Positions 1-64,000 of a stretch of 64,000 nt of DNA are shown here, in pieces. The stretch comes from Eledone cirrhosa. Taxonomy: Eukaryota. A program made the position numbers and the translations under genes. The stretch covers positions 256,990,001-257,054,000 of the forward strand of contig OZ024741.1 of assembly GCA_964016885.1 (NCBI GenBank). The letters are read 5' to 3'. Below the pieces are notes generated by a model. It did no database searches, was not told the origin of the DNA, and worked only from the letters and a program-made list of their open reading frames with translations. Every line of letters starts with the position of its first letter. Position 1 is the stretch's first letter.

Positions 1-960
1 TTTACGGATGTTTCGACATACGAGTGTTTTGACTTACGATGTTTCGACTTACGAGTGTTTCGACTTACGAGTGTTTCGACTTACGGGTGTTTCGACTTAC
101 GAGTGTTTCAACTTACGAGTGTTTCGACTTACGAATGTTTCGACTTACGGGTGTTTCGGCTTACGAGTGTTTCGACTTACGAGTGTTCTGACTTACGAGT
201 GTTCTGACTTACGAGTGTTCCGGCTTACGAGTTTTTCGACTTACGAGTGTTTCGACTTACGAGTGTTTCGACTTACGAGTGTTTCGGCTTACGAGTGGTT
301 TGACTTACGAGTGTTCTTACTACGAGTGTTCTGACTTACGAATGTTTCGGCTTATGAGTGTTTCGACTTACGAGTGTTTCGGTTTATGAGTGTTTCGACT
401 TACGAGTGTTTCGGCTTACGAGTGTTTGGACTTACCAGTGTTTCGACTTACGGGTGTTTCGACTTACGAGTGTTTCGTCTACGAGTGTTTCGGCTTACGA
501 GTGTTTCGACATACGGGTGTTTCGACTTACGGTGTTTCGGCTTACGAGTGTTTCGACTTACGAGTGTTCTGACTTACGAGTGTTCTGACTTATGAGTGTT
601 CTGACTTACGAGTGTTCCGACTTACGAGTGTTTCGGCTTACGAGTGTTTCGACTTACGAGTGTTTCGACTTACGAGTGTTTCGACTTATGAGTGTTTTGA
701 CTTACGGTGTTTCGGCTTACGAGTGTTTCGACTTACGAGTGTTTTGACTTACTGGTGTTTTGACATACGAGTGTTTCGATACGAGTGTTTCGACTTACGA
801 GTGTTCTGACTTACGAGTGTTCTGACTTACGAGTGTTCTGACTTACGAGTGTTCTAACTTACGAGTGTTCTGACTTACGAGTGTTCTGACTTACGAGTGT
901 TCCGACTTACGAGTGTTTCGGCTCACGAGTGTTTCGGCTTACGAGTGTTTCGACTTACGA

Positions 961-1029
961 AAATAACAAATAGACGCGGTTTCAAATCCCTATGCTTTTC
1001 AAATTCAGTACATTAATCTTTATTCATAC
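961..1029. repeat. AT-rich island, subtype A
   Basis: AAATAACAAATAGACGCGGTTTCAAATCCCTATGCTTTTCAAATTCAGTACATTAATCTTTATTCATAC interrupts a monomer after GACTTACGA. Confidence 0.97.
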
Positions 1030-3373
1030 GTTTCGCTTTACGAGTGTTTCGACTTACGAGTGTTTCGACTTACGAGTGTTTCGGCTTACGAGTGTTTTGA
1101 CTTACGAGTGTTTTGACTTACATGTGTTTCGACTTACGCGTGTTTCGACTTACGAGTGTTTCGACTTGCGAGTGTTTCGACTACGAGTGTTTCGACTTAC
1201 GAATGTTTTGACTTACGGATGTTTTGACTTACGGGTGTTTCGGCTTACGAGTGTTTCGACTTACGAGTGTTCTGACTTACGAGTGTTCTGACTTACGAGT
1301 GTTCTGACTTACGAGTGTTCCGACTTACGAGTGTTTCGACTTAAGAGTGTTTCGGATTACGAGTGCTTCGACTTACGAGTGTTTCGGCTTACGAGTGTTT
1401 CGACTTACTAATGTTTTTACTTACGAGTGTTTCGGCGTACGAGTGTTTCCACTTACGAGTGTTTCGACTTACGGGTGTTTTGACTTACGGGTGTTTCGGC
1501 TTACGAGTGTTTCGACTTACGAGTGTTTTGACTTAAGGGTGTTTCGACTTACGAGTATTTTTGGCTTACGAGTGTTTCGACTTACGAGTGTTTTGACTTA
1601 CGAGTGTTCTAATTTACAGATGTTTCGACATACGAGTGTTTTGACTTACGAGTGTTTCGACTTATGAGTGTTTCGACTTACGAGTGTTTCGGCTTACGAG
1701 TGGTTTGACTTACGAGTGTTCTGACTACGAGTGTTTTGACTTACGAGTGTTTCGGCTTATGAGTGTTTCGACTTACGAGTGTTTCGGTTTACGAGTGTTT
1801 CGACTTACGAGTGTTTCGACTTACGAGTGTTTCGACTTACGAGTGATTCGACCACGAGTGTTTCGACTTACGAGTGTTTCGGCTTACGAGGGTTTCGACA
1901 TACGGGTGTTTCGACTTACGATGTTTCGGCTTACGAGTGTTTCGACTTACGAGTGTTCTGACTTACGGGTGTTTCGACTTACTGGTGTTTCGACTTAAGA
2001 GTGTTTCGACTTACGAGCGCTTCGACTTACGAGTGTTCTGACTTACGAGTGTTCCGACTTACGAGTGTTTCGGCTTACGAGTGTTTCGGCTTACTAATGT
2101 TTTTACTTACGAGTGTTTCGGTGTACGAGTGTTTCGACTTAAGGATGTTTCGACTTACGAGTGTTTCGACTTACGAGTGTTTCGACTTACGAGTGTTTCG
2201 ACTTACGAGTGTTTCGACTTACGAGTTTTTTGGCTTACGAAGGTTTTGACTTACGGGTGTTTCGACTTACGGGTGTTTCGGCTTACGAGTGTTTCGACTT
2301 ACGAGTGTTTTGACTTACGAGTGTTCTGACTTACGAGTGTTCCGACTTACGAGTGTTCCGACTTACGAGTGTTTCGGCTTAAGAGTGTTTCGGCTTACGA
2401 ATGTTTCGGCTTACGAGTGTTTTGACTTACGAGTGTTCTGACTACGAGTGTTCTGACTTACGGGTGTTCTGACTTACGAGTGTTCCGACTTACGAGAGTT
2501 TCGGCTAATGAGTGTTTCGACTTACGGGCGTTTCGACTTACGGGTGTTTCGACTTACGAGTGTTTTGACTTACGAGTGTTCTGACTTACGAGTGTTCTGA
2601 CTTACGAGTGTTCCGACTTACGACTGTTTCGACTTACGAGTGTTTTGACTTACGAGTGTTCCGACTTACGATTGTTTCGGCTTACGGGTGTTTCGACGTA
2701 CGAGTATTTTTGGCTTACGAGTGTTTCGACTTACGAGTGTTTTGAATTACGATTGTTTCGGCTTACGAGTGTTTCGACTTACGAGTATTTCGACTTACGA
2801 GTTTTTTTACTTACGGTGTTTCGGCTTACGAGTGTTTCGACTTATGAGTGTTTCGACTTACGAGTGTTCTGACTTACGAGTGTTCTGACTTGCGAGTGTT
2901 CCGACTTACGAGTGTTTCGGCTTACGAGTGTTTCGACATACGAGTGTTTTGACTTACGGATGTTTCGACTTACGGGTGTTTCGACTTACGAGTGTTTCGA
3001 CTTACGAGTGTTCTGACTGCGAGTGTTCTGACTTACGGGTGTTTCGACTTACGTGTGTTTCGACTTACGAGTGTTCCGACCTACGAGGTTTTCAGCTTAC
3101 GGGTGTTCCGGCTTATGAGTATTTTCGGCTTACGTGTGTTTCGACTTACGAGTGTTTTGACTTACGATTGTTTCGGCTTACGAGTGTTTCGACTTACGAG
3201 TGTTTCGACTTACGAGTGTTTTGACTTACGGGTGTTTTGACATACGAGTGTTTCGACACGAGTGTTCTGACTTAAGAGTGTTCTGACTTACGAGTGTTCT
3301 GACTTACGAGTGTTCTGACTTACGAGTGTTCTGACTTACGAGTGTTCTGACTTACGAGTGTTTCGACTTACGA

Positions 3374-3442
3374 AAATAACAAATAGACGCGGTTTCAAAT
3401 CTCTATGCTTTTCAAGTTCATTACATTAATCTTTATTTATAC
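3374..3442. repeat. AT-rich island, subtype B
   Basis: Diagnostic sequence ...AATCTCTATGCTTTTCAAGTTCATTACATTAATCTTTATTTATAC. Confidence 0.97.
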
Positions 3443-6400
3443 GTTTCGCTTTACGAATGTTTCGACTTACGAGTGTTTCGACTTACGAGTGTTTCCACTT
3501 ACGAGTGTTCTGACTTACGAGTGTTCTGACTTACGAGTGTTCCGACTTACGAGTGTTTCGACTTACGAGTGTTTTGGCTTACGAGTGTTTTGACTTAAGG
3601 GTGTTTCGACTTACGAGTGTTTCGATACGAGTGTTTCGACTTACGAGTGTTTCGGCTTACGAGTGTTTCGACTTACGAGTGTTTCGACTTACGAGTGTTC
3701 TGATTTACGGATGTTTCGACATACGAGTGTTTCGACTTACGATTGTTTCGACTTACGAGTGTTTTGACATACGGGTGTTTTGACATACGAGTGTTTCGAT
3801 ACGAGTGTTTCGACTTACGAGTGTTCTGACTTACGAGTGTTCTGACTTACGAGTGTTCTGACTTACGAGTGTTCCGACTTACGAGTGTTCCGACTTACGA
3901 GTGTTCTGACTTACGAGTGTTCTGACTTACGAGTGTTCCGGCTTACGAGTTTTCGACTTACGAGTGTTTCGACTTACGAGTGTTTCGGCTTACAAGTGTT
4001 TCGGCTTACGAGTGGTTTGACTTACGAGTGTTCTGACTACGAGTGTTCTGTCTTACGAGTGTTTCGACTTACGAGTGTTTCGGCTTATGAGTGTTTCGAC
4101 TTACGAGTGTTTCGGCTTACGAGTGTTTCGACTTACGAGTGTTTCGACTTACGGGTGTTTCGACTTACGAGTGTTTCGACTACGAATGTTTCGACTTACG
4201 AGTGTTTCGGCTTACGAGTGTTTCGACTTATGGGTGTTTCGACTTACGAGTGTTTTTACTTACGGTGTTTCGGCTTACGAGTGTTTCGACATACGAGTGT
4301 TTTGACTTACGGGTGTTTCGACTTACGAGTGTTTCAACTTACGAATGTTTTGACTTACGGGTGTTTCGGCTTACGAGTGTTTCGATTTATGAGTGTTTCG
4401 GCTTACGAGTGTTTCGACTTACTAATGTTTTTACTTACGAGTGTTTCGGCGTACGAGAGTTTTGACTTACGAGTGTTTCTACTTACGAGTGTTTCGACTT
4501 ACGAGTGTTTTGACTTACGAATGTTTTGACTTACGGGTGTTTCGGCTTACGAGTGTTTCGACTTACGAGTCTTTCGGCTTACGAGTGTTTCTACTTACTA
4601 ATGTTTTTACTTACGAGTGTTTCGGCGTACGAGTGTTTCGACTTACGAGTGTTTCGACTTACGGGTGTTTTGACTTACGGGTGTTTCGGCTTACGAGTGT
4701 TTCGACTTACGAGTGTTTTGACTTAAGGGTGTTTCGACTTACGAGTATTTTTGGCTTACGAAGGTTTTGACTTACGGGTGTTTCGACTTACGGGTGTTTC
4801 GGCTTACGTGTGTTTCGACTTACGAGTGTTTTGACTTACGAGTGTTTCGGCTTATGAGTGTTTCGACTTACGAGTGTTTCGGTTTACGAGTGTTTCGACT
4901 TACGAGTGTTTCGACTTACGAGTGTTTCGACTTACGAGTGATTCGACCACGAGTGTTTCGACTTACGAGTGTTTCGGCTTACGAGTGTTTCGACATACGG
5001 GTGTTTCGACTTACGATGTTTCGGCTTACGAGTGTTTCGACTTACGAGTGTTCTGACTTACGGGTGTTTCGACTTACTGGTGTTTCGACTTAAGAGTGTT
5101 TCGACTTACGAGCGCTTCGACTTACGAGTGTTCTGACTTACGAGTGTTCCGACTTACGAGTGTTTCGGCTTACGAGTGTTTCGGCTTACTAATGTTTTTA
5201 CTTACGAGTGTTTCGGTGTACGAGTGTTTCGACTTAAGGATGTTTCGACTTACGAGTGTTTCGACTTACGAGTGTTTCGACTTACGAGTGTTTCGACTTA
5301 CGAGTGTTTCGACTTACGAGTTTTTTGGCTTACGAAGGTTTTGACTTACGGGTGTTTCGACTTACGGGTGTTTCGGCTTACGAGTGTTTCGACTTACGAG
5401 TGTTTTGACTTACGAGTGTTCTGACTTACGAGTGTTCCGACTTACGAGTGTTCCGACTTACGAGTGTTTCGGCTTAAGAGTGTTTCGGCTTACGAATGTT
5501 TCGGCTTACGAGTGTTTTGACTTACGAGTGTTCTGACTACGAGTGTTCTGACTTACGGGTGTTCTGACTTACGAGTGTTCCGACTTACGAGAGTTTCGGC
5601 TAATGAGTGTTTCGACTTACGGGCGTTTCGACTTACGGGTGTTTCGACTTACGAGTGTTTTGACTTACGAGTGTTCTGACTTACGAGTGTTCTGACTTAC
5701 GAGTGTTCCGACTTACGACTGTTTCGACTTACGAGTGTTTTGACTTACGAGTGTTCCGACTTACGATTGTTTCGGCTTACGGGTGTTTCGACGTACGAGT
5801 ATTTTTGGCTTACGAGTGTTTCGACTTACGAGTGTTTTGAATTACGATTGTTTCGGCTTACGAGTGTTTCGACTTACGAGTATTTCGACTTACGAGTTTT
5901 TTTACTTACGGTGTTTCGGCTTACGAGTGTTTCGACTTATGAGTGTTTCGACTTACGAGTGTTCTGACTTACGAGTGTTCTGACTTGCGAGTGTTCCGAC
6001 TTACGAGTGTTTCGGCTTACGAGTGTTTCGACATACGAGTGTTTTGACTTACGGATGTTTCGACTTACGGGTGTTTCGACTTACGAGTGTTTCGACTTAC
6101 GAGTGTTCTGACTGCGAGTGTTCTGACTTACGGGTGTTTCGACTTACGTGTGTTTCGACTTACGAGTGTTCCGACCTACGAGGTTTTCAGCTTACGGGTG
6201 TTCCGGCTTATGAGTATTTTCGGCTTACGCGTGTTTCGACTTACGAGTGTTTTGACTTACGATTGTTTCGGCTTACGAGTGTTTCGACTTACGAGTGTTT
6301 CGACTTACGAGTGTTTTGACTTACGGGTGTTTTGACATACGAGTGTTTCGACACGAGTGTTCTGACTTAAGAGTGTTCTGACTTACGAGTGTTCTGACTT

Positions 6401-6468
6401 ACGAGTGTTCTGACTTACGAGTGTTCTGACTTACGAGTGTTCTGAATTACGAGTGTTTCGACTTACGA

Positions 6469-6537
6469 AAATAACAAATAGACGCGGTTTCAAATCTCTA
6501 TGCTTTTCAAGTTCATTACATTAATCTTTATTTATAC
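6469..6537. repeat. AT-rich island, subtype B
   Basis: Same sequence as the 3374 copy, at +3,095. Confidence 0.97.
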
Positions 6538-7074
6538 GTTTCGCTTTACGAATGTTTCGACTTACGAGTGTTTCGACTTACGAGTGTTTCCACTTACGAG
6601 TGTTCTGACTTACGAGTGTTCTGACTTACGAGTGTTCCGACTTACGAGTGTTTCGACTTACGAGTGTTTTGGCTTACGAGTGTTTTGACTTAAGGGTGTT
6701 TCGACTTACGAGTGTTTCGATACGAGTGTTTCGACTTACGAGTGTTTCGGCTTACGAGTGTTTCGACTTACGAGTGTTTCGACTTACGAGTGTTCTGATT
6801 TACGGATGTTTCGACATACGAGTGTTTCGACTTACGATTGTTTCGACTTACGAGTGTTTTGACATACGGGTGTTTTGACATACGAGTGTTTCGATACGAG
6901 TGTTTCGACTTACGAGTGTTCTGACTTACGAGTGTTCTGACTTACGAGTGTTCTGACTTACGAGTGTTCTGACTTACGAGTGTTCCGACTTACGAGTGTT
7001 CCGACTTACGAGTGTTCTGACATACGAGTGTTCTGACTTACGAGTGTTCCGGCTTACGAGTTTTCGACTTACGA

Positions 7075-10000
7075 GTGTTTCGACTTACGAGTGTTTCGGC
7101 TTACAAGTGTTTCGGCTTACGAGTGGTTTGACTTACGAGTGTTCTGACTACGAGTGTTCTGTCTTACGAGTGTTTCGACTTACGAGTGTTTCGGCTTATG
7201 AGTGTTTCGACTTACGAGTGTTTCGGCTTACGAGTGTTTCGACTTACGAGTGTTTCGACTTACGGGTGTTTCGACTTACGAGTGTTTCGACTACGAATGT
7301 TTCGACTTACGAGTGTTTCGGCTTACGAGTGTTTCGACTTATGGGTGTTTCGACTTACGAGTGTTTTTACTTACGGTGTTTCGGCTTACGAGTGTTTCGA
7401 CATACGAGTGTTTTGACTTACGGGTGTTTCGACTTACGAGTGTTTCAACTTACGAATGTTTTGACTTACGGGTGTTTCGGCTTACGAGTGTTTCGATTTA
7501 TGAGTGTTTCGGCTTACGAGTGTTTCGACTTACTAATGTTTTTACTTACGAGTGTTTCGGCGTACGAGAGTTTTGACTTACGAGTGTTTCTACTTACGAG
7601 TGTTTCGACTTACGAGTGTTTTGACTTACGAATGTTTTGACTTACGGGTGTTTCGGCTTACGAGTGTTTCGACTTACGAGTCTTTCGGCTTACGAGTGTT
7701 TCTACTTACTAATGTTTTTACTTACGAGTGTTTCGGCGTACGAGTGTTTCGACTTACGAGTGTTTCGACTTACGGGTGTTTTGACTTACGGGTGTTTCGG
7801 CTTACGAGTGTTTCGACTTACGAGTGTTTTGACTTAAGGGTGTTTCGACTTACGAGTATTTTTGACTTACGAGTGTTTCGACTTACGAGTGTTTTGACTT
7901 ACGAGTGTTCTAATTTACGGATGTTTCGACATACGAGTGTTTTGACTTACGAGTGTTTCGACTTATGAGTGTTTCGACTTACGAGTGTTTCGGCTTACGA
8001 GTGGTTTGACTTACGAGTGTTCTGACTACGAGTGTTTTGACTTACGAGTTTTTCGGCTTATGAGTGTTTCGACTTACGAGTGTTTCGGCTTATGAGTGTT
8101 TCGACTTACGTGTGTTTCGGTTTACGAGTGTTTCGACTTACGAGTGTTTCGACTTACGGGTGTTTCGACTTACGAGTGTTTCGACTACGAGTGTTTCGAC
8201 TTACGAGTGTTTCGGCTTATGAGTGTTTCGACATACGGGTGTTTCGACTTACGATGTTTCGGCTTACGAGTGTTTCGACTTACGAGTATTCTGACTTACG
8301 GGTGTTTCGACTTACGGGTGTTTCGACTTAAGAGTGTTTCGACTTACGAGCGCTTCGACTTACGAGTGTTCTGACTTACGAGTGTTCCGACTTACGAGTG
8401 TTTCGGCTTACGAGTGTTTCGACTTACGAGTGTTCCGGCTTACGCGTGTTTCGACTTACGAGTGTTTCGGCTTATGAGTGTTTCGACTTACGAGTGCTTC
8501 GGCTTACGAGTGTTTCGACTTACGAGTGTTTCGGCTTACGAGAGTTTCGACTTACGAATGTTTTGGCTTACGAGTGTTTCGGCTTACGAGTGTTTCGACT
8601 TACGGGTGTTTCGACTTACGGGTGTTCCGACTTAAGAGTGATTCGACTTACGAGCGCTTCGACTTACGAGTGTTCCGACTTACGAGTGTTTCTGCTTACG
8701 AGTGTTTCGACTTACGAGTGTTTCGGCTTACAAGTGTTTCGGCTTACGAGTGGTTTGACTTACGAGTGTTCTGACTACGAGTGTTTCGACTTACGAGTGT
8801 TCCGGCTTACGCGTGTTTCGACTTACGAGTGTTTCGGCTTATGAGTGTTTCGACTCACGAGTGTTTCGGCTTACGAGTGTTTCGACTTACGAGTGTTTCG
8901 ACTTACGGGTGTTTCGACTTACGAGTGTTTCGACTACGAATGTTTCGACTTACGAGTGTTTCGGCTTACGAGTGTTTCGACTTATGGGTGTTTCGACTTA
9001 CGAGTGTTTTTACTTACGGTGTTTCGGCTTCCGAGTGTTTCGACATACGAGTGTTTTGACTTACGGGTGTTTCGACTTACGAATGTTTTGACTTACGGGT
9101 GTTTCGGCTTACGATTGTTTCGATTTATGAGTGTTTCGGCTTACGAGTGTTTCGACTTACTAATGTTTTTACTTACGAGTGTTTCGGCGTACGAGAGTTT
9201 TGACTTACGAGTGTTTCTACTTACGAGTGTTTCGACTTACGAGTGTTTTGACTTACGAATGTTTTGACTTACGGGTGTTTCGGCTTACGAGTGTTTCGAC
9301 TTTCGAGTCTTTCGGCTTACGAGTGTTTCGACTTACTAATGTTTTTACTTACGAGTGTTTCGGCGTACGAGTGTTTCGACTTACGAGTGTTTCGACTTAC
9401 GGGTGTTTTGACTTACGGGTGTTTCGGCTTACGAGTGTTTCGACTTACGAGTGTTTTGACTTAAGGGTGTTTCGACTTACGAGTATTTTTGGCTTACGAG
9501 TGTTTCGACTTACGAGTGTTTCGACTTACGAGTGTTCTAATTTACGGATGTTTCGACATACGAGTGTTTTGACTTACGAGTGTTTCGACTTATGAGTGTT
9601 TCGACTTACGAGTGTTTCGGCTTACGAGTGGTTTGACTTACGAGTGTTCTGACTACGAGTGATTTGACTTACGAGTGTTTCGGCTTATGAGTGTTTCGAC
9701 TTACGAGTGTTTCGGCTTATGAGTGTTTCGACTTACGTGTGTTTCGGTTTACGAGTGTTTCGACTTACGAGTGTTTCGACTTACGGGTGTTTCGACTTAC
9801 GAGTGTTTCGACTACGAGTGTTTCGACTTACGAGTGTTTCGGCTTACGAGTGTTTCGACATACGGGTGTTTCGACTTACGATGTTTCGGCTTACGAGTGT
9901 TTCGACTTACGAGTATTCTGACTTACGGGTGTTTCGACTTATGGGTGTTTCGACTTAAGAGTGTTTCGACTTACGAGCGCTTCGACTTACGAGTGTTCTG

Positions 10001-10340
10001 ACTTACGAGTGTTCCGACTTACGAGTGTTTCGGCTTACGAGTGTTTCGACTTACGAGTGTTCCGGCTTACGCGTGTTTCGACTTACGAGTGTTTCGGCTT
10101 ATGAGTGTTTCGACTTACGAGTGCTTCGGCTTACGAGTGTTTCGACTTACGAGTGTTTCGGCTTACGAGAGTTTCGACTTACGAATGTTTTGGCTTACGA
10201 GTGTTTCGGCTTACGAGTGTTTCGACTTACGGGTGTTTCGACTTACGGGTGTTCCGACTTAAGAGTGATTCGACTTACGGGCGCTTCGACTTACGAGTGT
10301 TCCGACTTACGAGTGTTTCTGCTTACGAGTGTTTCGACTT
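7075..10340 (+). repeat. Nested 1,627-bp tandem duplication (present in units 1-4, begun in unit 6, collapsed in unit 5); boundaries approximate
   Basis: The TTACAAG marker is at 7101 and 8728. Landmarks recur as 7552->9179, 8080->9707 and 47893->49520. Confidence 0.9.
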
Positions 10341-10544
10341 ACGAATGTTTCGACTTACGAGTGTTTCGGCTTACGAGTGTTTCGACTTACTAATGTTTTT
10401 ACTTACGAGTGTTTCGGCGTACGAGTGTTTCGACTTACGAGTGTTTCGGCTTACGAGTGTTTCGACTTACGAGTGTTTTTACTTAAGGGTGTTTCGACTT
10501 ACGAGTATTTTTGGCTTACGAGTGTTTCGACTTACGAGTGTTTT

Positions 10545-13454: not shown

Positions 13455-13523
13455 AAATAACAAATAGACGCGGTTTCAAATCTGTATGCTTTTCAAGTTC
13501 ATTACATTAATCTTTATTTATAC
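13455..13523. repeat. AT-rich island, subtype C
   Basis: As subtype B but with AATCTGTATG. Confidence 0.97.
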
Positions 13524-51805: not shown

Positions 51806-51874
51806 AAATAACAAATAGACGCGGTTTCAAATCTGTATGCTTTTCAAGTTCATTACATTAATCTTTATTTATAC
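51806..51874. repeat. AT-rich island, subtype C
   Basis: Same sequence as the 13455 copy. Confidence 0.97.
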
Positions 51875-53800
51875 GTTTCGCTTTACGAATGTTTCGACTT
51901 ACGAGTGTTTCGACTTACGAGTGTTTCGACTTACGGGTGTTTCGACTTACGAGTGTTTCGACATACGAGTGTTCTGACTACGAGTGTTCTGACTTACGGG
52001 TGCTCTGACTTACGAGTGTTTCGACTTACGAGTGTTTCGACTTACGAGTGTTTCGACTTACGAGTGTTTCGGCTTACGAGTGTTTCGACTTACTAATGTT
52101 TTTACTTACGAGTGTTTCGGTGTACGAGTGTTTCGACTTAAGGATGTTTCGACTTACGAGTGTTTCGACTTACGAGTGTTTTGGCTTACGTGAGTTTCGA
52201 CTTAAGAGTGTTCTGATTTACGAGTGTTCTGACTTGCGGGTGTTCTGATTTACGAGTGTTCCGACTTACGAGTGTTTCGGCTTATGAGTGTTTCGACTTA
52301 CGAGTGTTTCGGCTTACGAGTGTTTCGACTTATGGGCGTTTCGACTTACGAGTGTTTTTACTTGCGGTGTTTCGGCTTACGAGTGCTTCGACATACGAGT
52401 GTTTTGACTTACGTGTGTTTCGACTTACGAGTGTTTTGACTTACGAATGTTTTGACTTACGAGTGTTTCGGCGTACGAGAGTTTTGACTTACGAGTGTTT
52501 CTACTTACGAGTGTTTCGACTTACGAGTGTTTTGACTTACGAATGTTTTGACTTACGGGTGTTTCGGCTTACGAGTGTTTCGACTTACGAGTCTTTCGGC
52601 TTACGAGTGTTTCGACTTACTAATGTTTTTACTTACGAGTGTTTCGGCGTACGAGTGTTTCGACTTACGAGTGTTTCGGCTTACGAGTGTTTCGACTTAC
52701 TAATGTTTTTACTTACGAGTGTTTCGGCGTACGAGTGTTTCGACTTACGAGTGTTTTTACTTAAGGGTGTTTCGACTTACGTGTATTTTTGGCTTACGAG
52801 TGTTTCGACTTACGAGTGTTTTGACTTACGAGTGTTCTGATTTACGGATGTTTCGACATACGAGTGTTTTGACTTACGATGTTTCGACTTACGAGTGTTT
52901 CGACTTACGAGTGTTTCGACTTACGGGTGTTTCGACTTACGAGTGTTTCAACTTACGAGTGTTTCGACTTACGAATGTTTCGACTTACGGGTGTTTCGGC
53001 TTACGAGTGTTTCGACTTACGAGTGTTCTGACTTACGAGTGTTCTGACTTACGAGTGTTCCGGCTTACGAGTTTTTCGACTTACGAGTGTTTCGACTTAC
53101 GAGTGTTTCGACTTACGAGTGTTTCGGCTTACGAGTGGTTTGACTTACGAGTGTTCTGACTACGAGTGTTCTGACTTACGAATGTTTCGGCTTATGAGTG
53201 TTTCGACTTACGAGTGTTTCGGTTTATGAGTGTTTCGACTTACGAGTGTTTCGGCTTACGAGTGTTTGGACTTACGAGTGTTTCGACTTACGGGTGTTTC
53301 GACTTACGAGTGTTTCGTCTACGAGTGTTTCGGCTTACGAGTGTTTCGACATACGGGTGATTCGACTTACGGTGTTTCGGCTTACGAGTGTTTCGACTTA
53401 CGAGTGTTCTGACTTACGAGTGTTCTGACTTATGAGTGTTCTGACTTACGAGTGTTCCGACTTACGAGTGTTTCGGCTTACGAGTGTTTCGACTTACGAG
53501 TGTTTCGACTTACGAGTGTTTCGACTTATGAGTGTTTTGACTTACGGTGTTTCGGCTTACGAGTGTTTCGACTTACGAGTGTTTTGACTTACTGGTGTTT
53601 TGACATACGAGTGTTTCGATACGAGTGTTTCGACTTACGAGTGTTCTGACTTACGAGTGTTCTGACTTACGAGTGTTCTGACTTACGAGTGTTCTAACTT
53701 AAGAGTGTTCTGACTTACGAGTGTTCTGACTTACGAGTGTTCCGACTTACGAGTGTTTCGGCTCACGAGTGTTTCGGCTTACGAGTGTTTCGACTTACGA

Positions 53801-53869
53801 AAATAACAAATAGACGCGGTTTCAAATCTCTATGCTTTTCAAATTCAGTACATTAATCTTTATTCATAC
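53801..53869. repeat. AT-rich island, subtype A' (A with AATCTCTATG)
   Basis: Has the A-type 3' half (AAATTCAGT, ATTCAT) but TCTC in place of TCCC. Confidence 0.97.
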
Positions 53870-56197
53870 GTTTCGCTTTACGAGTGTTTCGACTTACGAG
53901 TGTTTCGACTTACGAGTGTTTCGGCTTACGAGTGTTTTGACTTACGAGTGTTTTGACTTACATGTGTTTCGACTTACGCGTGTTTCGACTTACGAGTGTT
54001 TCGACTTGCGAGTGTTTCGACTACGGGTGTTTCGACTTACGAATGTTTTGGCTTACGGATGTTTTGACTTACGGGTGTTTCGGCTTACGAGTGTTTCGAC
54101 TTACGAGTGTTCTGACTTACGAGTGTTCTGACTTACGAGTGTTCTGACTTACGAGTGTTCCGACTTACGAGTGTTTCGACTTAAGAGTGTTTCGGATTAC
54201 GAGTGCTTCGACTTACGAGTGTTTCGGCTTACGAGTGTTTCGACTTACTAATGTTTTTACTTACGAGTGTTTCGGCGTACGAGTGTTTCGACTTACGAGT
54301 GTTTCGACTTACGGGTGTTTTGACTTACGGGTGTTTCGGCTTACGAGTGTTTCGACTTACGAGTGTTTTGACTTAAGGGTGTTTCGACTTACGAGTATTT
54401 TTGGCTTACGAGTGTTTCGACTTACGAGTGTTTTGACTTACGAGTGTTCTAATTTACGGATGTTTCGACATACGAGTGTTTTGACTTACGAGTGTTTCGA
54501 CTTATGAGTGTTTCGACTTACGAGTGTTTCGGCTTACGAGTGGTTTGACTTACGAGTGTTCTGACTACGAGTGTTTTGACTTACGAGTGTTTCGGCTTAT
54601 GAGTGTTTCGACTTACGAGTGTTTCGGTTTACGAGTGTTTCGACTTACGAGTGTTTCGACTTACGAGTGTTTCGACTTACGAGTGATTCGACCACGAGTA
54701 TTTCGACTTACGAGTGTTTCGGCTTACGAGTGTTTCGACATACGGGTGTTTCGACTTACGATGTTTCGGCTTAGGAGTGTTTCGACTTACGAGTGTTCTG
54801 ACTTACGGGTGTTTCGACTTACTGGTGTTTCGACTTAAGAGTGTTTCGACTTACGAGCGCTTCGACTTACGAGTGTTCTGACTTACGAGTGTTCCGACTT
54901 ACGAGTGTTTCGGCTTACGAGTGTTTCGGCTTACTAATGTTTTTACTTACGAGTGTTTCGGTGTACGAGTGTTTCGACTTAAGGATGTTTCGACTTACGA
55001 GTGTTTCGACTTACGAGTGTTTCGACTTACGAGTGTTTCGACTTACGAGTTTTTTGGCTTACGAAGGTTTTGACTTACGGGTGTTTCGACTTACGGGTGT
55101 TTCGGCTTACGAGTGTTTCGACTTACGAGTGTTTTGACTTACGAGTGTTCTGACTTACGAGTGTTCCGACTTACGAGTTCCGACTTACGAGTGTTTCGGC
55201 TTAAGAGTGTTTCGGCTTACGAATGTTTCGGCTTACGAGTGTTTTGACTTACGAGTGTTCTGACTACGAGTGTTCTGACTTACGGGTGTTCTGACTTACG
55301 AGTGTTCCGACTTACGAGAGTTTCGGCTAATGAGTGTTTCGACTTACGGACGTTTCGACTTACGGGTGTTTCGACTTACGAGTGTTTTGACTTACGAGTG
55401 TTCTGACTTACGAGTGTTCTGACTTACGAGTGTTCCGACTTACGACTGTTTCGACTTACGAGTGTTTTGACTTACGAGTGTTCCGACTTACGATTGTTTC
55501 GGCTTACGGGTGTTTCGACGTACGAGTATTTTTGGCTTACGAGTGTTTCGACTTACGAGTGTTTTGAATTACGATTGTTTCGGCTTACGAGTGTTTCGAC
55601 TTACGAGTATTTCGACTTACGAGTTTTTTTACTTACGGTGTTTCGGCTTACGAGTGTTTCGACTTATGAGTGTTTCGACTTACGAGTGTTCTGACTTACG
55701 AGTGTTCTGACTTGCGAGTGTTCCGACTTACGAGTGTTTCGGCTTACGAGTGTTTCGACATACGAGTGTTTTGACTTACGGATGTTTCGACTTACGGGTG
55801 TTTCGACTTACGAGTGTTTCGACTTACGAGTGTTCTGACTGCGAGTGTTCTGACTTACGGGTGTTTCGACTTACGTGTGTTTCGACTTACGAGTGTTCCG
55901 ACCTACGAGGTTTTCAGCTTACGGGTGTTCCGGCTTATGAGTATTTTCGGCTTACGTGTGTTTCGACTTACGAGTGTTTTGACTTACGATTGTTTCGGCT
56001 TACGAGTGTTTCGACTTACGAGTGTTTCGACTTACGAGTGTTTTGACTTACGGGTGTATTGACATACGAGTGTTTCGACTTACGAGTGTTCTGACTTAAG
56101 AGTGTTCTGACTTACGAGTGTTCTGACTTACGAGTGTTCTGACTTACGAGTGTTCTGACTTACGAGTGTTCTGACTTACGAGTGTTTCGACTTACGA

Positions 56198-56266
56198 AAA
56201 TAACAAATAGACGCGGTTTCAAATCTCTATGCTTTTCAAGTTCATTACATTAATCTTTATTTATAC
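56198..56266. repeat. AT-rich island, subtype B
   Basis: Same sequence as the 3374 copy. Confidence 0.97.
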
Positions 56267-59200
56267 GTTTCGCTTTACGAATGTTTCGACTTACGAGTGT
56301 TTCGACTTACGAGTGTTTCCACTTACGAGTGTTCTGACTTACGAGTGTTCTGACTTACGAGTGTTCCGACTTACGAGTGTTTCGATTTACGAGTGTTTTG
56401 GCTTACGAGTGTTTTGACTTAAGGGTGTTTCGACTTACGAGTGTTTCGATACGAGTGTTTCGACTTACGAGTGTTTCGGCATACGAGTGTTTCGACTTAC
56501 GAGTGTTTCGACTTACGAGTGTTCTGATTTACGGATGTTTCGACATACGAGTGTTTCGACTTACGATTGTTTCGACTTACGAGTGTTTTGACATACGGGT
56601 GTTTTGACATACGAGTGTTTCGATACGAGTGTTTCGACTTACGAGTGTTCTGACTTACGAGTGTTCTGACTTACGAGTGTTCTGACTTACGAGTGTTCTG
56701 ACTTACGAGTGTTCCGACTTACGAGTGTTCCGACTTACGAGTGTTCTGACTTACGAGTGTTCTGACTTACGAGTGTTCCGGCTTACGAGTTTTTCGACTT
56801 ACGAGTGTTTCGACTTACGAGTGTTTCGGCTTACAAGTGTTTCGGCTTACGAGTGGTTTGACTTACGAGTGTTCTGACTACGAGTGTTCTGTCTTACGAG
56901 TGTTTCGACTTACGAGTGTTTCGGCTTATGAGTGTTTCGACTTACGAGTGTTTCGGCTTACGAGTGTTTCGACTTACGAGTGTTTCGACTTACGGGTGTT
57001 TCGACTTACGAGTGTTTCGACTACGAATGTTTCGACTTACGAGTGTTTCGGCTTACGAGTGTTTCGACTTATGGGTGTTTCGACTTACGAGTGTTTTTAC
57101 TTACGGTGTTTCGGCTTACGAGTGTTTCGACATACGAGTGTTTTGACTTACGGGTGTTTCGACTTACGAGTGTTTCGACTTACGAATGTTTTGACTTACG
57201 GGTGTTTCGGCTTACGAGTGTTTCGATTTATGAGTGTTTCGGCTTACGAGTGTTTCGACTTACTAATGTTTTTACTTACGAGTGTTTCGGCGTACGAGAG
57301 TTTTGACTTACGAGTGTTTCTACTTACGAGTGTTTCGACTTACGAGTGTTTTGACTTACGAATGTTTTGACTTACGGGTGTTTCGGCTTACGAGTGTTTC
57401 GACTTACGAGTCTTTCGGCTTACGAGTGTTTCTACTTACTAATGTTTTTACTTACGAGTGTTTCGGCGTACGAGTGTTTCGACTTACGAGTGTTTCGACT
57501 TACGGGTGTTTTGACTTACGGGTGTTTCGGCTTACGAGTGTTTCGACTTACGAGTGTTTTGACTTAAGGGTGTTTCGACTTACGAGTATTTTTGGCTTAC
57601 GAGTGTTTCGACTTACGAGTGTTTTGACTTACGAGTGTTCTAATTTACGGATGTTTCGACATACGAGTGTTTTGACTTACGAGTGTTTCGACTTATGAGT
57701 GTTTCGACTTACGAGTGTTTCGGCTTACGAGTGGTTTGACTTACGAGTGTTCTGACTACGAGTGTTTTGACTTACGAGTTTTTCGGCTTATGAGTGTTTC
57801 GACTTACGAGTGTTTCGGCTTATGAGTGTTTCGACTTACGTGTGTTTCGGTTTACGAGTGTTTCGACTTACGAGTGTTTCGACTTACGGGTGTTTCGACT
57901 TACGAGTGTTTCGACTACGAGTGTTTCGACTTACGAGTGTTTCGGCTTATGAGTGTTTCGACATACGGGTGTTTCGACTTACGATGTTTCGGCTTACGAG
58001 TGTTTCGACTTACGAGTATTCTGACTTACGGGTGTTTCGACTTACGGGTGTTTCGACTTAAGAGTGTTTCGACTTACGAGCGCTTCGACTTACGAGTGTT
58101 CTGACTTACGAGTGTTCCGACTTACGAGTGTTTCGGCTTACGAGTGTTTCGACTTACGAGTGTTCCGGCTTACGCGTGTTTCGACTTACGAGTGTTTCGG
58201 CTTATGAGTGTTTCGACTTACGAGTGCTTCGGCTTACGAGTGTTTCGACTTACGAGTGTTTCGGCTTACGAGAGTTTCGACTTACGAATGTTTTGGCTTA
58301 CGAGTGTTTCGGCTTACGAGTGTTTCGACTTACGGGTGTTTCGACTTACGGGTGTTCCGACTTAAGAGTGATTGGACTTACGGGCGCTTCGACTTACGAG
58401 TGTTCCGACTTACGAGTGTTCCGGCTTACGAGTGTTTCGGCTTACGAGTATTTCGACTTACGAGTGTTCCGGCTTACGCGTGTTTCGACTTACGAGTGTT
58501 TCGGCTTATGAGTGTTTCGACTTACGAGTGCTTCGGCTTACGAGTGTTTCGACTTACGAGTGTTTCGGCTTACGAGAGTTTCGACTTACGAATGTTTTGA
58601 CTTACGAGTGTTTCGGCTTACGAGTGTTTCGGCTTACGAGTGTTTCGGCTTACGAGTGTTTCGGCTTACGAGTGTTTTGACTTACGAGTGTTCTGACTAC
58701 GAGTGTTCTGACTTACGGGTGTTCTGACTTACGAGTGTTCCGACTTACGAGTGTTTCGGCTAATGAGTGTTTCGACTTACGGGCGTTTCGACTTACGGGT
58801 GTTTCGACTTACGAGTGTTTTGACTTATGAGTGTTCAGACTTACGAGTGTTCTGACTTACGAGTGTTCCGACTTACGACTGTTTCGACTTACGAGTGTTT
58901 TGACTTACGAGTGTTCCGACTTACGATTGTTTCGGATTACGGGTGTTTCGACGTACGAGTATTTTTGGCTTACGAGTGTTTCGACTTACGAGTGTTTTGA
59001 ATTACGATTGTTTCGGCTTACGAGTGTTTCGACTTACGAGTATTTCGACGTACGAGTTTTTTTTCCTTACGGTGTTTCGGCTTACGAGTGTTTCGACTTA
59101 TGAGTGTTTCGACTTACGAGTGTTCTGACTTACGAGTGTTCTGACTTGCGAGTGTTCCGACTTACGAGTGTTTCGGCTTACGAGTGTTTCGACATACGAG

Positions 59201-59567
59201 TGTTTTGACTTACGGATGTTTCGACTTACGGGTGTTTCGACTTACGAGTGTTTCGACTTACGAGTGTTCTGACTACGAGTGTTCTGACTTACGGGTGTTT
59301 CGACTTACGAGTGTTCCGACCTACGAGGGTTTCAGCTTACGGGTGTTCCGGCTTATGAGTATTTTCGGCTTACGTGTGTTTCGACTTACGAGTGTTTTGA
59401 CTTACGATTGTTTCGGCTTACGAGTGTTTCGACTTACGAGTGTTTCGACTTACGAGTGTTTTGACTTACGATTGTTTCGGCTTACGAGTGTTTCGACTTA
59501 CGAGTGTTCTGACTTACGAGTGTTCTGACTTACGAGTGTTCTGACTTACGAGTGTTTCGACTTACGA

Positions 59568-59636
59568 AAATAACAAATAGACGCGGTTTCAAATCTGTAT
59601 GCTTTTCAAGTTCATTACATTAATCTTTATTTATAC
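59568..59636. repeat. AT-rich island, subtype C
   Basis: Same sequence as the 13455 copy. Confidence 0.97.
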
Positions 59637-61562
59637 GTTTCGCTTTACGAATGTTTCGACTTACGAGTGTTTCGACTTACGAGTGTTTCGACTTACGGGT
59701 GTTTCGACTTACGAGTGTTTCGACATACGAGTGTTCTGACTACGAGTGTTCTGACTTACGGGTGCTCTGACTTACGAGTGTTTCGACTTACGAGTGTTTC
59801 GACTTACGAGTGTTTCGACTTACGAGTGTTTCGGCTTACGAGTGTTTCGACTTACTAATGTTTTTACTTACGAGTGTTTCGGTGTACGAGTGTTTCGACT
59901 TAAGGATGTTTCGACTTACGAGTGTTTCGACTTACGAGTGTTTTGGCTTACGTGAGTTTCGACTTAAGAGTGTTCTGATTTACGAGTGTTCTGACTTGCG
60001 GGTGTTCTGATTTACGAGTGTTCCGACTTACGAGTGTTTCGGCTTATGAGTGTTTCGACTTACGAGTGTTTCGGCTTACGAGTGTTTCGACTTATGGGCG
60101 TTTCGACTTACGAGTGTTTTTACTTACGGTGTTTCGGCTTACGAGTGCTTCGACATACGAGTGTTTTGACTTACGTGTGTTTCGACTTACGAGTGTTTTG
60201 ACTTACGAATGTTTTGACTTACGAGTGTTTCGGCGTACGAGAGTTTTGACTTACGAGTGTTTCTACTTACGAGTGTTTCGACTTACGAGTGTTTTGACTT
60301 ACGAATGTTTTGACTTACGGGTGTTTCGGCTTACGAGTGTTTCGACTTACGAGTCTTTCGGCTTACGAGTGTTTCGACTTACTAATGTTTTTACTTACGA
60401 GTGTTTCGGCGTACGAGTGTTTCGACTTACGAGTGTTTCGGCTTACGAGTGTTTCGACTTACTAATGTTTTTACTTACGAGTGTTTCGGCGTACGAGTGT
60501 TTCGACTTACGAGTGTTTTTACTTAAGGGTGTTTCGACTTACGTGTATTTTTGGCTTACGAGTGTTTCGACTTACGAGTGTTTTGACTTACGAGTGTTCT
60601 GATTTACGGATGTTTCGACATACGAGTGTTTTGACTTACGATGTTTCGACTTACGAGTGTTTCGACTTACGAGTGTTTCGACTTACGGGTGTTTCGACTT
60701 ACGAGTGTTTCAACTTACGAGTGTTTCGACTTACGAATGTTTCGACTTACGGGTGTTTCGGCTTACGAGTGTTTCGACTTACGAGTGTTCTGACTTACGA
60801 GTGTTCTGACTTACGAGTGTTCCGGCTTACGAGTTTTTCGACTTACGAGTGTTTCGACTTACGAGTGTTTCGACTTACGAGTGTTTCGGCTTACGAGTGG
60901 TTTGACTTACGAGTGTTCTGACTACGAGTGTTCTGACTTACGAATGTTTCGGCTTATGAGTGTTTCGACTTACGAGTGTTTCGGTTTATGAGTGTTTCGA
61001 CTTACGAGTGTTTCGGCTTACGAGTGTTTGGACTTACGAGTGTTTCGACTTACGGGTGTTTCGACTTACGAGTGTTTCGTCTACGAGTGTTTCGGCTTAC
61101 GAGTGTTTCGACATACGGGTGATTCGACTTACGGTGTTTCGGCTTACGAGTGTTTCGACTTACGAGTGTTCTGACTTACGAGTGTTCTGACTTATGAGTG
61201 TTCTGACTTACGAGTGTTCCGACTTACGAGTGTTTCGGCTTACGAGTGTTTCGACTTACGAGTGTTTCGACTTACGAGTGTTTCGACTTATGAGTGTTTT
61301 GACTTACGGTGTTTCGGCTTACGAGTGTTTCGACTTACGAGTGTTTTGACTTACTGGTGTTTTGACATACGAGTGTTTCGATACGAGTGTTTCGACTTAC
61401 GAGTGTTCTGACTTACGAGTGTTCTGACTTACGAGTGTTCTGACTTACGAGTGTTCTAACTTAAGAGTGTTCTGACTTACGAGTGTTCTGACTTACGAGT
61501 GTTCCGACTTACGAGTGTTTCGGCTCACGAGTGTTTCGGCTTACGAGTGTTTCGACTTACGA

Positions 61563-61631
61563 AAATAACAAATAGACGCGGTTTCAAATCTCTATGCTTT
61601 TCAAATTCAGTACATTAATCTTTATTCATAC
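61563..61631. repeat. AT-rich island, subtype A'
   Basis: Same sequence as the 53801 copy. Confidence 0.97.
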
Positions 61632-64000
61632 GTTTCGCTTTACGAGTGTTTCGACTTACGAGTGTTTCGACTTACGAGTGTTTCGGCTTACGAGTGTTTT
61701 GACTTACGAGTGTTTTGACTTACATGTGTTTCGACTTACGCGTGTTTCGACTTACGAGTGTTTCGACTTGCGAGTGTTTCGACTACGGGTGTTTCGACTT
61801 ACGAATGTTTTGGCTTACGGATGTTTTGACTTACGGGTGTTTCGGCTTACGAGTGTTTCGACTTACGAGTGTTCTGACTTACGAGTGTTCTGACTTACGA
61901 GTGTTCTGACTTACGAGTGTTCCGACTTACGAGTGTTTCGACTTAAGAGTGTTTCGGATTACGAGTGCTTCGACTTACGAGTGTTTCGGCTTACGAGTGT
62001 TTCGACTTACTAATGTTTTTACTTACGAGTGTTTCGGCGTACGAGTGTTTCGACTTACGAGTGTTTCGACTTACGGGTGTTTTGACTTACGGGTGTTTCG
62101 GCTTACGAGTGTTTCGACTTATGGGTGTTTCGACTTACGAGTGTTTTTACTTACGGTGTTTCGGCTTACGAGTGTTTCGACATACGAGTGTTTTGACTTA
62201 CGGGTGTTTCGACTTACGAGTGTTTCGACTTACGAATGTTATGACTTACGGGTGTTTCGGCTTACGAGTGTTTCGATTTATGAGTGTTTCGGCTTACGAG
62301 TGTTTCGACTTACTAATGTTTTTACTTACGAGTGTTTCGGCGTACGAGAGTTTTGACTTACGAGTGTTTCTACTTACGAGTGTTTCGACTTACGAGTGTT
62401 TTGACTTACGAATGTTTTGACTTACGGGTGTTTCGGCTTACGAGTGTTTCGACTTACGAGTCTTTCGGCTTACGAGTGTTTCTACTTACTAATGTTTTTA
62501 CTTACGAGTGTTTCGGCGTACGAGTGTTTCGACTTACGAGTGTTTCGACTTACGGGTGTTTTGACTTACGGGTGTTTCGGCTTACGAGTGTTTCGACTTA
62601 CGAGTGTTTTGACTTAAGGGTGTTTCGACTTACGAGTATTTTTGGCTTACGAGTGTTTCGACTTACGAGTGTTTTGACTTACGAGTGTTCTAATTTACGG
62701 ATGTTTCGACATACGAGTGTTTTGACTTACGAGTGTTTCGACTTATGAGTGTTTCGACTTACGAGTGTTTCGGCTTACGAGTGGTTTGACTTACGAGTGT
62801 TCTGACTACGAGTGTTTTGACTTACGAGTTTTTCGGCTTATGAGTGTTTCGACTTACGAGTGTTTCGGCTTATGAGTGTTTCGACTTACGTGTGTTTCGG
62901 TTTACGAGTGTTTCGACTTACGAGTGTTTCGACTTACGGGTGTTTCGACTTACGAGTGTTTCGACTACGAGTGTTTCGACTTACGAGTGTTTCGGCTTAT
63001 GAGTGTTTCGACATACGGGTGTTTCGACTTACGATGTTTCGGCTTACGAGTGTTTCGACTTACGAGTATTCTGACTTACGGGTGTTTCGACTTACGGGTG
63101 TTTCGACTTAAGAGTGTTTCGACTTACGAGCGCTTCGACTTACGAGTGTTCTGACTTACGAGTGTTCCGACTTACGAGTGTTTCGGCTTACGAGTGTTTC
63201 GACTTACGAGTGTTCCGGCTTACGCGTGTTTCGACTTACGAGTGTTTCGGCTTATGAGTGTTTCGACTTACGAGTGCTTCGGCTTACGAGTGTTTCGACT
63301 TACGAGTGTTTCGGCTTACGAGAGTTTCGACTTACGAATGTTTTGGCTTACGAGTGTTTCGGCTTACGAGTGTTTCGACTTACGGGTGTTTCGACTTACG
63401 GGTGTTCCGACTTAAGAGTGATTCGACTTACGAGCGCTTCGACTTACGAGTGTTCCGACTTACGAGTGTTTCTGCTTACGAGTGTTTCGACTTACGAGTG
63501 TTTCGGCTTACAAGTGTTTCGGCTTACGAGTGGTTTGACTTACGAGTGTTCTGACTACGAGTGTTCTGTCTTACGAGTGTTTCGACTTACGAGTGTTTCG
63601 GCTTATGAGTGTTTCGACTCACGAGTGTTTCGGCTTAAGAGTGTTTCGACTTACGAGTGTTTCGACTTACGGGTGTTTCGACTTACGAGTGTTTCGACTA
63701 CGAATGTTTCGACTTACGAGTGTTTCGGCTTACGAGTGTTTCGACTTATGGGTGTTTCGACTTACGAGTGTTTTTACTTACGGTGTTTCGGCTTACGAGT
63801 GTTTCGACATACGAGTGTTTTGACTTACGGGTGTTTCGACTTACGAGTGTTTCGACTTACGAATGTTTTGACTTACGGGTGTTTCGGCTTACGATTGTTT
63901 CGATTTATGAGTGTTTCGGCTTACGAGTGTTTCCACTTACTAATGTTTTTACTTACGAGTGTTTCGGCGTACGAGAGTTTTGACTTACGAGTGTTTCTAC
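61563..64000 (+). repeat. HOR unit 6 (partial) with a 2,712-bp deletion removing the B island
   Basis: The offset to unit 5 switches from +7,762 to +5,050 at ~62095-62121. Confidence 0.9.

What the first reader, a model, noticed from the sequence alone, without database searches (positions are those of the whole stretch)
1..64000. Very large (~900-monomer, 14.5 kb) higher-order repeat built on a 16-bp monomer
Seen: neighbouring monomers often differ by 1-2 of 16 bases, yet the entire variant string recurs almost exactly at 14,489 bp. Periods are nested at 16, 207/304, 1,627, 3,095, 7,762/9,405 and 14,489 bp. Known: HOR organisation is typical of primate alpha-satellite centromeres, usually with tens of monomers at most. 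Inference: this is a recently amplified, possibly centromeric satellite whose homogenised unit is multi-kb rather than the monomer.
Basis: partly seen in the sequence, partly recalled or inferred. Interest (0 to 1): 0.75.

Follow-up and report, generated by a model that had tools for sequence, protein, structure and literature searches.

The report
Helitron-born octopod satellite, young duplications
The 14.5-kb repeat is real in the assembly but exists in only three and a half copies, so it is likely one recent local duplication, not a fixed centromere-type unit, inside a multi-megabase 16-letter satellite that likely grew out of a tiny repeat carried by a small jumping element in an octopus-like animal.

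Summary
The 14,489-bp period is real: about 900 monomers of 16 bp recur at about 99.95% identity. But the unit has only 3 whole copies plus 1 partial; a marker private to it hits 4 times in the 3-Gb assembly, all in this window. In 674 kb of the array, tandem duplications of 0.1-14.5 kb occur in 2-3 copies each, larger ones less diverged; this is the largest and among the youngest. So this is a heterogeneous array of nested one-off duplications (like human HSat3 nested tandem repeats), not an array-wide higher-order repeat. The monomer and the 70-bp spacer that interrupts it match the inside of a dispersed ~500-bp non-autonomous Helitron-like element with 1-3 monomers; copies with 12 and 141 monomers exist, and three megabase blocks start at that element's head. 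The family (~6 Mb) sits almost wholly at one interior site of one octopod chromosome; a centromere role is untested and not favoured. The scan reported the Helitron origin before, on DNA 35 kb away. Unexplained: monomers are about six times more diverged than the element pieces among them. Long reads are needed to exclude a false third copy.

The parts
1..64000 (+). 16-bp satellite array (commonest monomer TTACGAGTGTTTCGAC, 19% of monomers; 151 variants), part of an 817-kb block at C2:256,612,460-257,429,247
1..13969 (+). Copy 1 of the 14,489-bp unit (begins 519 bases before the window)
13970..28458 (+). Copy 2 (14,489 bp); its left part matches copy 3 and most of its right part matches copy 1
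28459..42931 (+). Copy 3 (14,473 bp; indels of -32 and +16 against copy 2)
42932..50658 (+). Partial copy 4; lacks the internal 3.1-kb duplication, as do the flanking relatives
50855..64000 (+). Rearranged mosaic of the same kb-scale blocks at about 99.5-99.8% identity; source of the 7,762, 9,389/9,405 and 304 lags
1726..7931 (+). Internal tandem duplication of 3,095/3,111 bp (0.33% diverged), in copies 1-3 only
7489..10279 (+). Internal 1,627-bp lag duplication (0.69% diverged over the 1,164 matched bases)
10515..10976 (+). 207-bp (13-monomer) duplication, 2.2 copies, once per unit
961..1037 (+). First of 19 non-satellite spacers (others start at 3374, 6469, 13455, 15450, 17863, 20958, 27944, 29939, 32352, 35447, 42417, 44396, 46809, 51806, 53801, 56198, 59568, 61563); matches the stretch just 5' of the internal repeat of a dispersed Helitron-like element; this variant is private to the four copies

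Best explanation
The window is satellite DNA in which a 14.5-kb stretch is present in three whole copies and one partial copy, likely the latest of many one-off tandem duplications in a multi-megabase 16-bp array that likely grew from a 1-3-copy repeat inside a small non-autonomous Helitron. Step 1 (shown): a ~500-bp dispersed element with a 5'-TC start, a GTCT microsatellite, a terminal hairpin and a CTAG end carries the spacer followed by 1-3 monomers. Step 2 (sizes shown, order inferred): the repeat lengthened in place (12 monomers in one copy, 141 in another between intact ends), and one insertion with an 8-bp-deleted head became the megabase array. Step 3 (inferred): an early duplication copied the 70-bp spacer into the array, where it now recurs every few kb. 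Step 4 (pattern shown, mechanism inferred): out-of-register repair between monomers (unequal sister exchange or break-induced replication with template switching) keeps making 2-3-copy tandem duplications of any length; later small events break up the large ones, so only the youngest large ones stay intact. Step 5 (shown at the block ends only): head plus left flank, and block end plus right flank, recur megabases apart. The array is likely heterochromatin with no sequence-specific job.
For: Copy number: unit-private 41-mer has 4 hits in the genome, all in the window; painting 264 kb on the unit gives 3 whole copies and 1 partial, a 92-97%-covered mosaic within about 80 kb, and 44-60% at 100 kb and beyond. 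Spectrum: 128 tandem duplications of 100 bp or more in 674 kb, at most 3.05 copies; median divergence 1.6% (100-300 bp, n=87), 0.39% (n=10), 0.30% (n=15), 0.16% (3-10 kb, n=15), 0.05% (14.5 kb, n=1) (rows are not independent events). Nested clock: 1.63-kb pair 0.69%, 3.1-kb pair 0.33%, 14.5-kb pairs 0.03-0.06%. Element: 16 of 17 dispersed spacer sites fetched are the element with 1-3 monomers, 1 is a 4-kb array; 15 of 16 show the hairpin-CTAG end; 166 exact hits of its 5' 32-mer; the genome holds many Helitron Rep/helicase frames (150 of 3,704 candidates scored, all matched). Series: 12 monomers (C2:80.55 Mb), 141 between head and tail (C4:114.05), 252 with tail only (C2:240.96), ~95 kb (C1:279.3). 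The 8-bp-deleted head has 4 hits: three block starts on C2 with the same left flank (96.5-99.5%) and the C4 copy; the spacer junction in the array carries that same deletion (278 junction hits in the stretches scanned). Arrays begin with the element's first monomer type and end before tails with its last type.
Against: Monomers are 8.5% diverged from the commonest monomer (7.1% without the variant already in the element), while spacers (n=363) and tails (n=25) in the arrays are 1.4% and the four heads 0-0.8% from a dispersed copy; plain neutral growth from one insertion predicts similar values. Run X1 (organism A) holds monomers but no contig over the spacer, which could mean that the satellite is older than the element's capture of it, although contigs cannot prove absence. 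The 5' flank base is A in only 5 of 16 dispersed copies and no empty site was checked. The C1 array has other satellites, not element ends, at both borders. No read spans a 14.5-kb copy; runs X4-X8 lack the unit's private spacer variants.
Confidence: 0.78

Rival explanations
1. The youngest 14.5-kb copy is a false duplication: the assembler joined two haplotypes, each holding two copies, out of register.
For: The stretch 6,230-20,718 and its copy differ at only 4 of 14,489 bases with no indel, and copy 2 is left-like-copy-3, right-like-copy-1, which a haplotype switch would also give. No available run could test it.
Against: Every copy has private substitutions, copies 3 and 4 have their own monomer-multiple indels, and the divergences form an ordered series. 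Equally young duplications (0.00-0.07%) of 1.7-8.8 kb occur in three of the five contiguous regions scanned. No N in any stretch. At most this removes one copy.
Confidence: 0.2
2. The array is, or contains, the functional centromere of this chromosome, and the young duplications mark the kinetochore zone.
For: Interior position (61-63% along a 416-Mb contig) inside a satellite cluster of at least 248-263 Mb with several families and one inverted block. The window is the most self-similar of 7 regions scanned (74% of 500-mers repeated vs 33-69%; it is also the shortest region). In human arrays CENP-A often lies on zones of recent duplication (passages of 10.1101/2021.07.12.452052).
Against: 73 of 74 exact five-monomer hits are on C2 and 1 on C4; the C1 array is only ~95 kb; so other chromosomes would need other repeats. 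No match to the CENP-B box pattern (recalled consensus; 0 on both strands). Recent duplications occur throughout the array.
Confidence: 0.2
3. The satellite came first; a Helitron captured 1-3 monomers, and an element copy later recombined into the old array through those monomers, bringing head, spacer and tail with it.
For: Monomers are about six times more diverged than the element pieces. Organism A has monomers with the same variant types but no spacer cover. Helitrons capture host tandem repeats (passages of PMC12628747).
Against: All three megabase blocks whose start was found by the head search begin at the element's head on a unique flank. The C4 copy has 141 monomers, already 1.5 changes per monomer, between near-intact ends and shares at most 37 of 2,077 80-mers with any one sampled stretch. 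A standard copy has expanded in place to 12 perfect monomers. First-type monomers stand at heads and last-type at tails.
Confidence: 0.15
4. The 14.5-kb unit is a true regimented higher-order repeat, and the assembly has collapsed a long array of it.
For: Near-identical copies can collapse in assemblies (own knowledge); lag 14,489 is the strongest long period in the window.
Against: 4 marker hits in the assembly. None of the laid contigs of X4, X5, X6, none of 48 reads of X7 and none of 28 reads of X8 covering position 989 carries the unit's private base, so it is not abundant in those individuals. Flanks are a shuffled mosaic with other periods.
Confidence: 0.04

Closest known systems
Human HSat2/HSat3 nested tandem repeats, including DYZ1 on Yq12 (10.1101/2021.07.12.452052 and 10.1101/2022.12.01.518724; passages read)
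   Same: Multi-kb near-identical units built from hundreds of diverged short monomers; periodicity that varies along the array and expands very locally; iterative tandem duplications up to megabases.
   Different: DYZ1 keeps one ~3.6-kb unit over 20 Mb; here no unit exceeds about 3.5 copies. Monomer 16 bp, unrelated sequence, interrupted by transposon pieces.
Heterogeneous higher-order repeats of the Arabidopsis type (10.64898/2026.09.17.752431; abstract, passages and sections 6 and 9 read)
   Same: Abundant paired blocks with no array-wide period.
   Different: That survey covers candidate centromeric satellites (mean monomer 140 bp) and tests periods of 2-100 monomers; the block here is ~900 monomers of 16 bp. 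Its main text does not mention octopus, cephalopod or mollusc; its supplementary tables were not available.
Helitron/Helentron-derived satellites: DINE-TR1/154TR in Drosophila virilis, Cg170 in Crassostrea gigas (passages of PMC6922343 and PMC12628747)
   Same: Tandem repeat inside a non-autonomous rolling-circle element that exists as element-borne, one-sided and free arrays.
   Different: Monomer 16 bp instead of 154-170 bp; one insertion appears to have given ~6 Mb at one site; the element has canonical TC/CTAG ends rather than the subterminal inverted repeats of Helentrons; a piece of the element's unique sequence is amplified within the array.
Primate alpha-satellite higher-order repeats (2-46 monomers, as stated)
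   Same: Copies of the long unit are far more alike than neighbouring monomers.
   Different: No fixed unit repeated hundreds of times, no fixed monomer number, no CENP-B box, no shown kinetochore.

Membership tests
Regimented higher-order repeat (alpha-satellite type) | Unit-to-unit identity far above monomer-to-monomer identity | tested here: met
   About 99.95% between copies; monomers 8.5% from the commonest type
Regimented higher-order repeat (alpha-satellite type) | One unit repeated many times with array-wide periodicity | tested here: not met
   3 whole copies and 1 partial; 4 marker hits in the genome; other periods elsewhere
Heterogeneous HOR / nested tandem repeat | Many near-identical paired blocks with locally changing spacing | tested here: met
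   75-94% of 100-mers repeated within each of 7 regions; 128 tandem duplications of many sizes
Non-autonomous canonical Helitron (source element) | 5' TC terminus | tested here: met
   16 of 16 copies examined share a boundary at TC; definition from PMC4067079
Non-autonomous canonical Helitron (source element) | 3' CTRR end with a nearby palindrome | tested here: met
   15 of 16 end in a GC-rich hairpin followed by CTAG
Non-autonomous canonical Helitron (source element) | Insertion between A and T without target duplication | tested here: inconclusive
   T follows in 15 of 15, but the 5' base is A in 5, G in 10, T in 1 of 16; copies sit in chains with other elements; no empty site checked
Non-autonomous canonical Helitron (source element) | Autonomous Rep/helicase partner with matching ends | tested here: inconclusive
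   PF14214 frames are abundant in the genome; none was linked to this family's ends
Helentron / HINE / DINE-1 | Subterminal inverted repeats and TT target | not tested
   No formal search; TC and CTAG ends point to the canonical type
Centromeric satellite | CENP-A occupancy or primary constriction | not testable with these tools
   No chromatin, methylation or Hi-C data
Centromeric satellite | One large array on each chromosome (monotypic case) | tested here: not met
   73 of 74 five-monomer hits on C2; C1 array ~95 kb; lists are cut at 100 places for commoner patterns
Telomeric repeat | Terminal position, replacing the usual telomere motif | tested here: not met
   Interior position; 24,922 hits of a 20-fold TTAGGG pattern in the genome

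The most novel reading that the evidence does not exclude
One Helitron insertion grew into about 6 Mb of satellite so fast that its own unique pieces, still scattered through the array, changed by only 1.4%, while the 16-bp monomers around them changed by 7-8.5%. The array would then carry a built-in clock showing that short-monomer satellites mutate about five times faster than neighbouring non-repeated DNA of the same age, and the youngest layer of that array could be a newborn, chromosome-specific centromere on a giant octopod chromosome.
Probability: 0.25. Interest if true: 0.7.

Novelty: new member of a known kind. Interest (0 to 1): 0.36.

Why it matters
As a higher-order repeat the finding is ordinary: satellites keep making such young duplications. 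The value lies in the setting. The searches run here found no description of this monomer or of any cephalopod satellite with this origin, and the genome holds the whole series from 1-3 monomers in a transposon to megabase blocks that begin at that transposon's head. The transposon pieces inside the array give an internal age marker, which makes the rate of monomer change and of array growth directly measurable if relatives and long reads are added.

Tried and rejected
Paper search for six rotations and reverse complements of the monomer: 0 papers. Searches for octopus or cephalopod satellites and centromeres: listings only, none on this subject; subscription journals, Dfam and Repbase were not searchable. 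Short nested periods: in monomer space no lag under 100 monomers beat the shuffle maximum, so 207 and 304 are rejected as array periods. CENP-B box: 0 (pattern recalled). Coding: 27 stop-free frames of 150 aa or more, all on the + strand, follow from a monomer without stop codons; not followed up as genes. Telomere system: rejected. Arthropod host, first suspected from the GTCT microsatellite: rejected (no TTAGG tracts, no PF00379; that family search had no positive control). A direct blastn of whole copies printed nothing and was replaced by diagonal counts and global alignments. Public runs: X4-X8 confirm monomer and spacer in organism D but are short contigs or reduced-representation reads and cannot test the 14.5-kb copies; X2 laid nothing and X3 one low-depth contig, which is no evidence on where the repeat occurs. 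The right end of the third block was bracketed only (satellite at 262.9 Mb, none at 263.2 Mb).
Full report
Observation. The window is one tandem array of a 16-bp monomer (9-63,997; 4,009 copies). The commonest monomer makes up 19% of 3,915 monomers counted outside spacers; 151 variants occur, and neighbours differ by 1-2 bases in 53% of pairs. Lag 14,489 is the strongest long period, with about 100% identity over 1-24,150. Nineteen copies of a ~70-bp non-satellite spacer interrupt the array, four per unit. The window lies at G000:C2:256,990,001-257,054,000 of a 3.0-Gb assembly; C2 is 416 Mb.

How many copies. With 100 kb added on each side, painting on copy 2 gives copy 1 (-519 to 13,969), copy 2 (13,970-28,458), copy 3 (28,459-42,931) and a partial copy 4 (to about 50,660). 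Copies 1 and 2 differ by 7 substitutions and no indel; copies 2 and 3 by 8 substitutions and indels of -32 and +16. A 41-mer private to the unit has 4 exact hits in the genome, all in the window. Within about 80 kb on each side, 92-97% of the DNA is a shuffled mosaic of the unit's blocks at roughly 99.5%; at 100 kb and beyond this falls to 44-60%. In 25 distant 10-kb samples, 0-29% of 100-mers are shared with the unit.

The nested periods. In monomer space within one unit, lags of 194/195 (3,095/3,111 bp), 102 (1,627 bp), 442 and 297 monomers beat the 99th percentile of the shuffle maximum; no lag under 100 did. 207 bp is a single 2.2-copy duplication per unit, 304 bp occurs once in the window outside the unit, and 7,762 and 9,405 link rearranged pieces after 41 kb. 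Divergences order the events: 1.63-kb pair 0.69%, 3.1-kb pair 0.33%, older 14.5-kb pair about 0.06%, youngest 0.03% (4 of 14,489). The 3.1-kb duplication is in copies 1-3 only; copy 4 and the flanking relatives have the single state. A census over five contiguous regions (674 kb) found 128 ungapped tandem duplications of 100 bp or more, none above 3.05 copies, with median divergence falling from 1.6% (100-300 bp) to 0.16% (3-10 kb) and 0.05% (this unit). Rows repeat when a duplication was itself duplicated, and gapped ones are missed. The 14.5-kb event is the largest seen; 8.8-kb and 15.3-kb lags occur within 110 kb. I infer serial out-of-register duplication, with large blocks surviving intact only while young.

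Is it real. Monomer and spacer are present in five runs of organism D from two studies (X4-X8), so the family is real. Those runs carry T at positions 989 and 1008 in everything laid, so they are likely other individuals or dropped the rare variants; they cannot test the copies. Copy 2 shares its left part with copy 3 and most of its right part with copy 1: the pattern of an unequal exchange, but also of a haplotype switch in assembly. I put a false third copy at about 20%.

Genomic setting. The host has TTAGGG tracts, no TTAGG tracts, and mollusc hemocyanin genes with seven domains each; the best single-unit match of one domain is PDB 1js8, which I recall as octopus hemocyanin. An octopod is therefore likely. 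The 16-bp family has 11,704 exact dimer hits, about 6.4 Mb at the sampled density of 18.4 per 10 kb (91 stretches, many near the window). It occupies most of C2:254.735 to about 263.0 Mb, interleaved with a 36/39-bp and a 45-bp satellite and non-repeated DNA, with one inverted block at about 258.95-260.1 Mb. 73 of 74 exact five-monomer hits are on C2. Small arrays lie at C1:279.3 (~95 kb), C2:240.96, C2:80.55 and C4:114.05 Mb.

Origin. The spacer's 23-mer has 1,855 hits, and many are single, dispersed sites (first 100 listed). Of 17 such sites fetched, 16 are one element of about 480-515 bp (three are longer through insertions; one had no end found): 5'-TC, a GTCT microsatellite, the spacer, 1-3 monomers, an AT-rich tail, a hairpin and CTAG; the seventeenth is a 4-kb array with the element's tail. 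These ends fit the canonical Helitron definition quoted in PMC4067079 (passages); the A|T target rule is not cleanly met (5' base A in 5 of 16). The element's first 32 bases have 166 exact hits, and Helitron Rep/helicase frames are abundant. The 704-bp islands downstream of the window are the element's tail plus the head of another element. One standard copy has 12 perfect monomers; the C4 copy has 141 monomers and an internal spacer between head and tail. The C4 head has an 8-bp deletion; this form has 4 hits in the genome: C4 and three starts of megabase blocks on C2 (254,735,123; 257,768,264; 262,043,165), which share their left flank at 96.5-99.5%. The spacers in the array begin at that same deletion junction. 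The right end of the window's block and its flank recur at 261.67 Mb at 99.0-99.5%. I infer that a single insertion founded the array and that megabase segments were later duplicated. I reached this before the first look-up of earlier notes; note e1-9957287, on DNA 35 kb away, says the same and is not independent support.

Against this reading. Spacers (n=363) and tails (n=25) in the arrays differ by 1.4% from a dispersed copy and the four heads by 0-1 of 129 bases, while monomers differ by 8.5% from the commonest type (7.1% without the variant already in the element; CpG transitions are 27% of changes). Four frequent variants make up most of this, so founder effects may explain part. An older satellite captured by the element would explain it too, and run X1 of organism A shows monomers without spacer cover. 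But the C4 copy already has 1.5 changes per monomer between near-intact ends, and arrays start with the element's first monomer type and end with its last. I rate element-to-satellite at about 80-85%.

Comparison. Multi-kb units of hundreds of short monomers are known: DYZ1 is a ~3.6-kb nested repeat of a pentamer, and such periods vary along arrays and expand very locally (passages). A 325-genome survey reports both regimented and heterogeneous higher-order repeats as prevalent in plants and animals (abstract, passages, sections 6 and 9); its supplementary satellite tables were not available and could list this family. Satellites born from Helitron-internal repeats are known in Drosophila (DINE-TR1/154TR) and oyster (Cg170) (passages). 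Searches for the monomer and for cephalopod satellites found no description.

Verdict. The array works like human nested tandem repeats and belongs with Helitron-derived satellites. A centromere role is open at about 20%. Interest 0.36, mainly for the complete birth series and the built-in age marker.

Noticed in passing
G000:C2:254.735, 257.768, 262.043 Mb (L130/L133, L172, L173); 257.429 and 261.669 Mb (L158, L156): Block heads with unique left flank recur three times and a block end with right flank twice, at 96.5-99.5% identity: megabase-scale duplication of the satellite domain, or partly false duplication.
   Followed up: partly
window 1-64000 vs spacers and tails in all sampled arrays: Monomers are about six times more diverged from their commonest type (8.5%) than the embedded element pieces are from a dispersed element copy (1.4%).
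   Followed up: partly
L113-L129 (dispersed element copies): In 15 of 15 copies with a found end, CTAG is followed directly by TC, in most cases the head of another Helitron-like element; 11 of 16 share one upstream sequence. The family sits in chains.
   Followed up: no
monomer: Weak self-similarity at lags 7 and 9 (0.37 vs about 0.25): the monomer looks like two diverged 7-9-bp halves.
   Followed up: no
G000:C2:257.36-257.43 Mb (L145, L146, L157, L158): Near the block's right end the 750-bp tail island recurs every 3-4 kb, a local compound unit of satellite plus transposon tail.
   Followed up: no
G000:C2:248-254.7, 255.1-255.3, 256.5-256.6, 257.7, 258.5-258.8, 260.2, 261.9 Mb: Neighbouring satellites of 25/27, 35, 36/39 (75, 114) and 45 bp; the 36/39-bp family flips strand between 254.65 and 255.1 Mb; the 25/27-bp family also borders the C1 array.
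   Followed up: no
G000:C1:217.89-218.09 Mb: Interstitial TTAGGG tracts near the middle of the 443-Mb C1, possibly a fusion scar.
   Followed up: no
G000:C20:3.5-5.2 Mb, C27:13-15.5 Mb, C19:35-40 Mb: Near-identical Helitron Rep/helicase frames recur at about 100-kb spacing, suggesting a very large tandem unit that contains a Helitron.
   Followed up: no
window 6229-6230, 20718-20719, 35207-35208: Three different dinucleotides at the same unit position in copies 1-3, at the inferred breakpoint of the youngest duplication.
   Followed up: no
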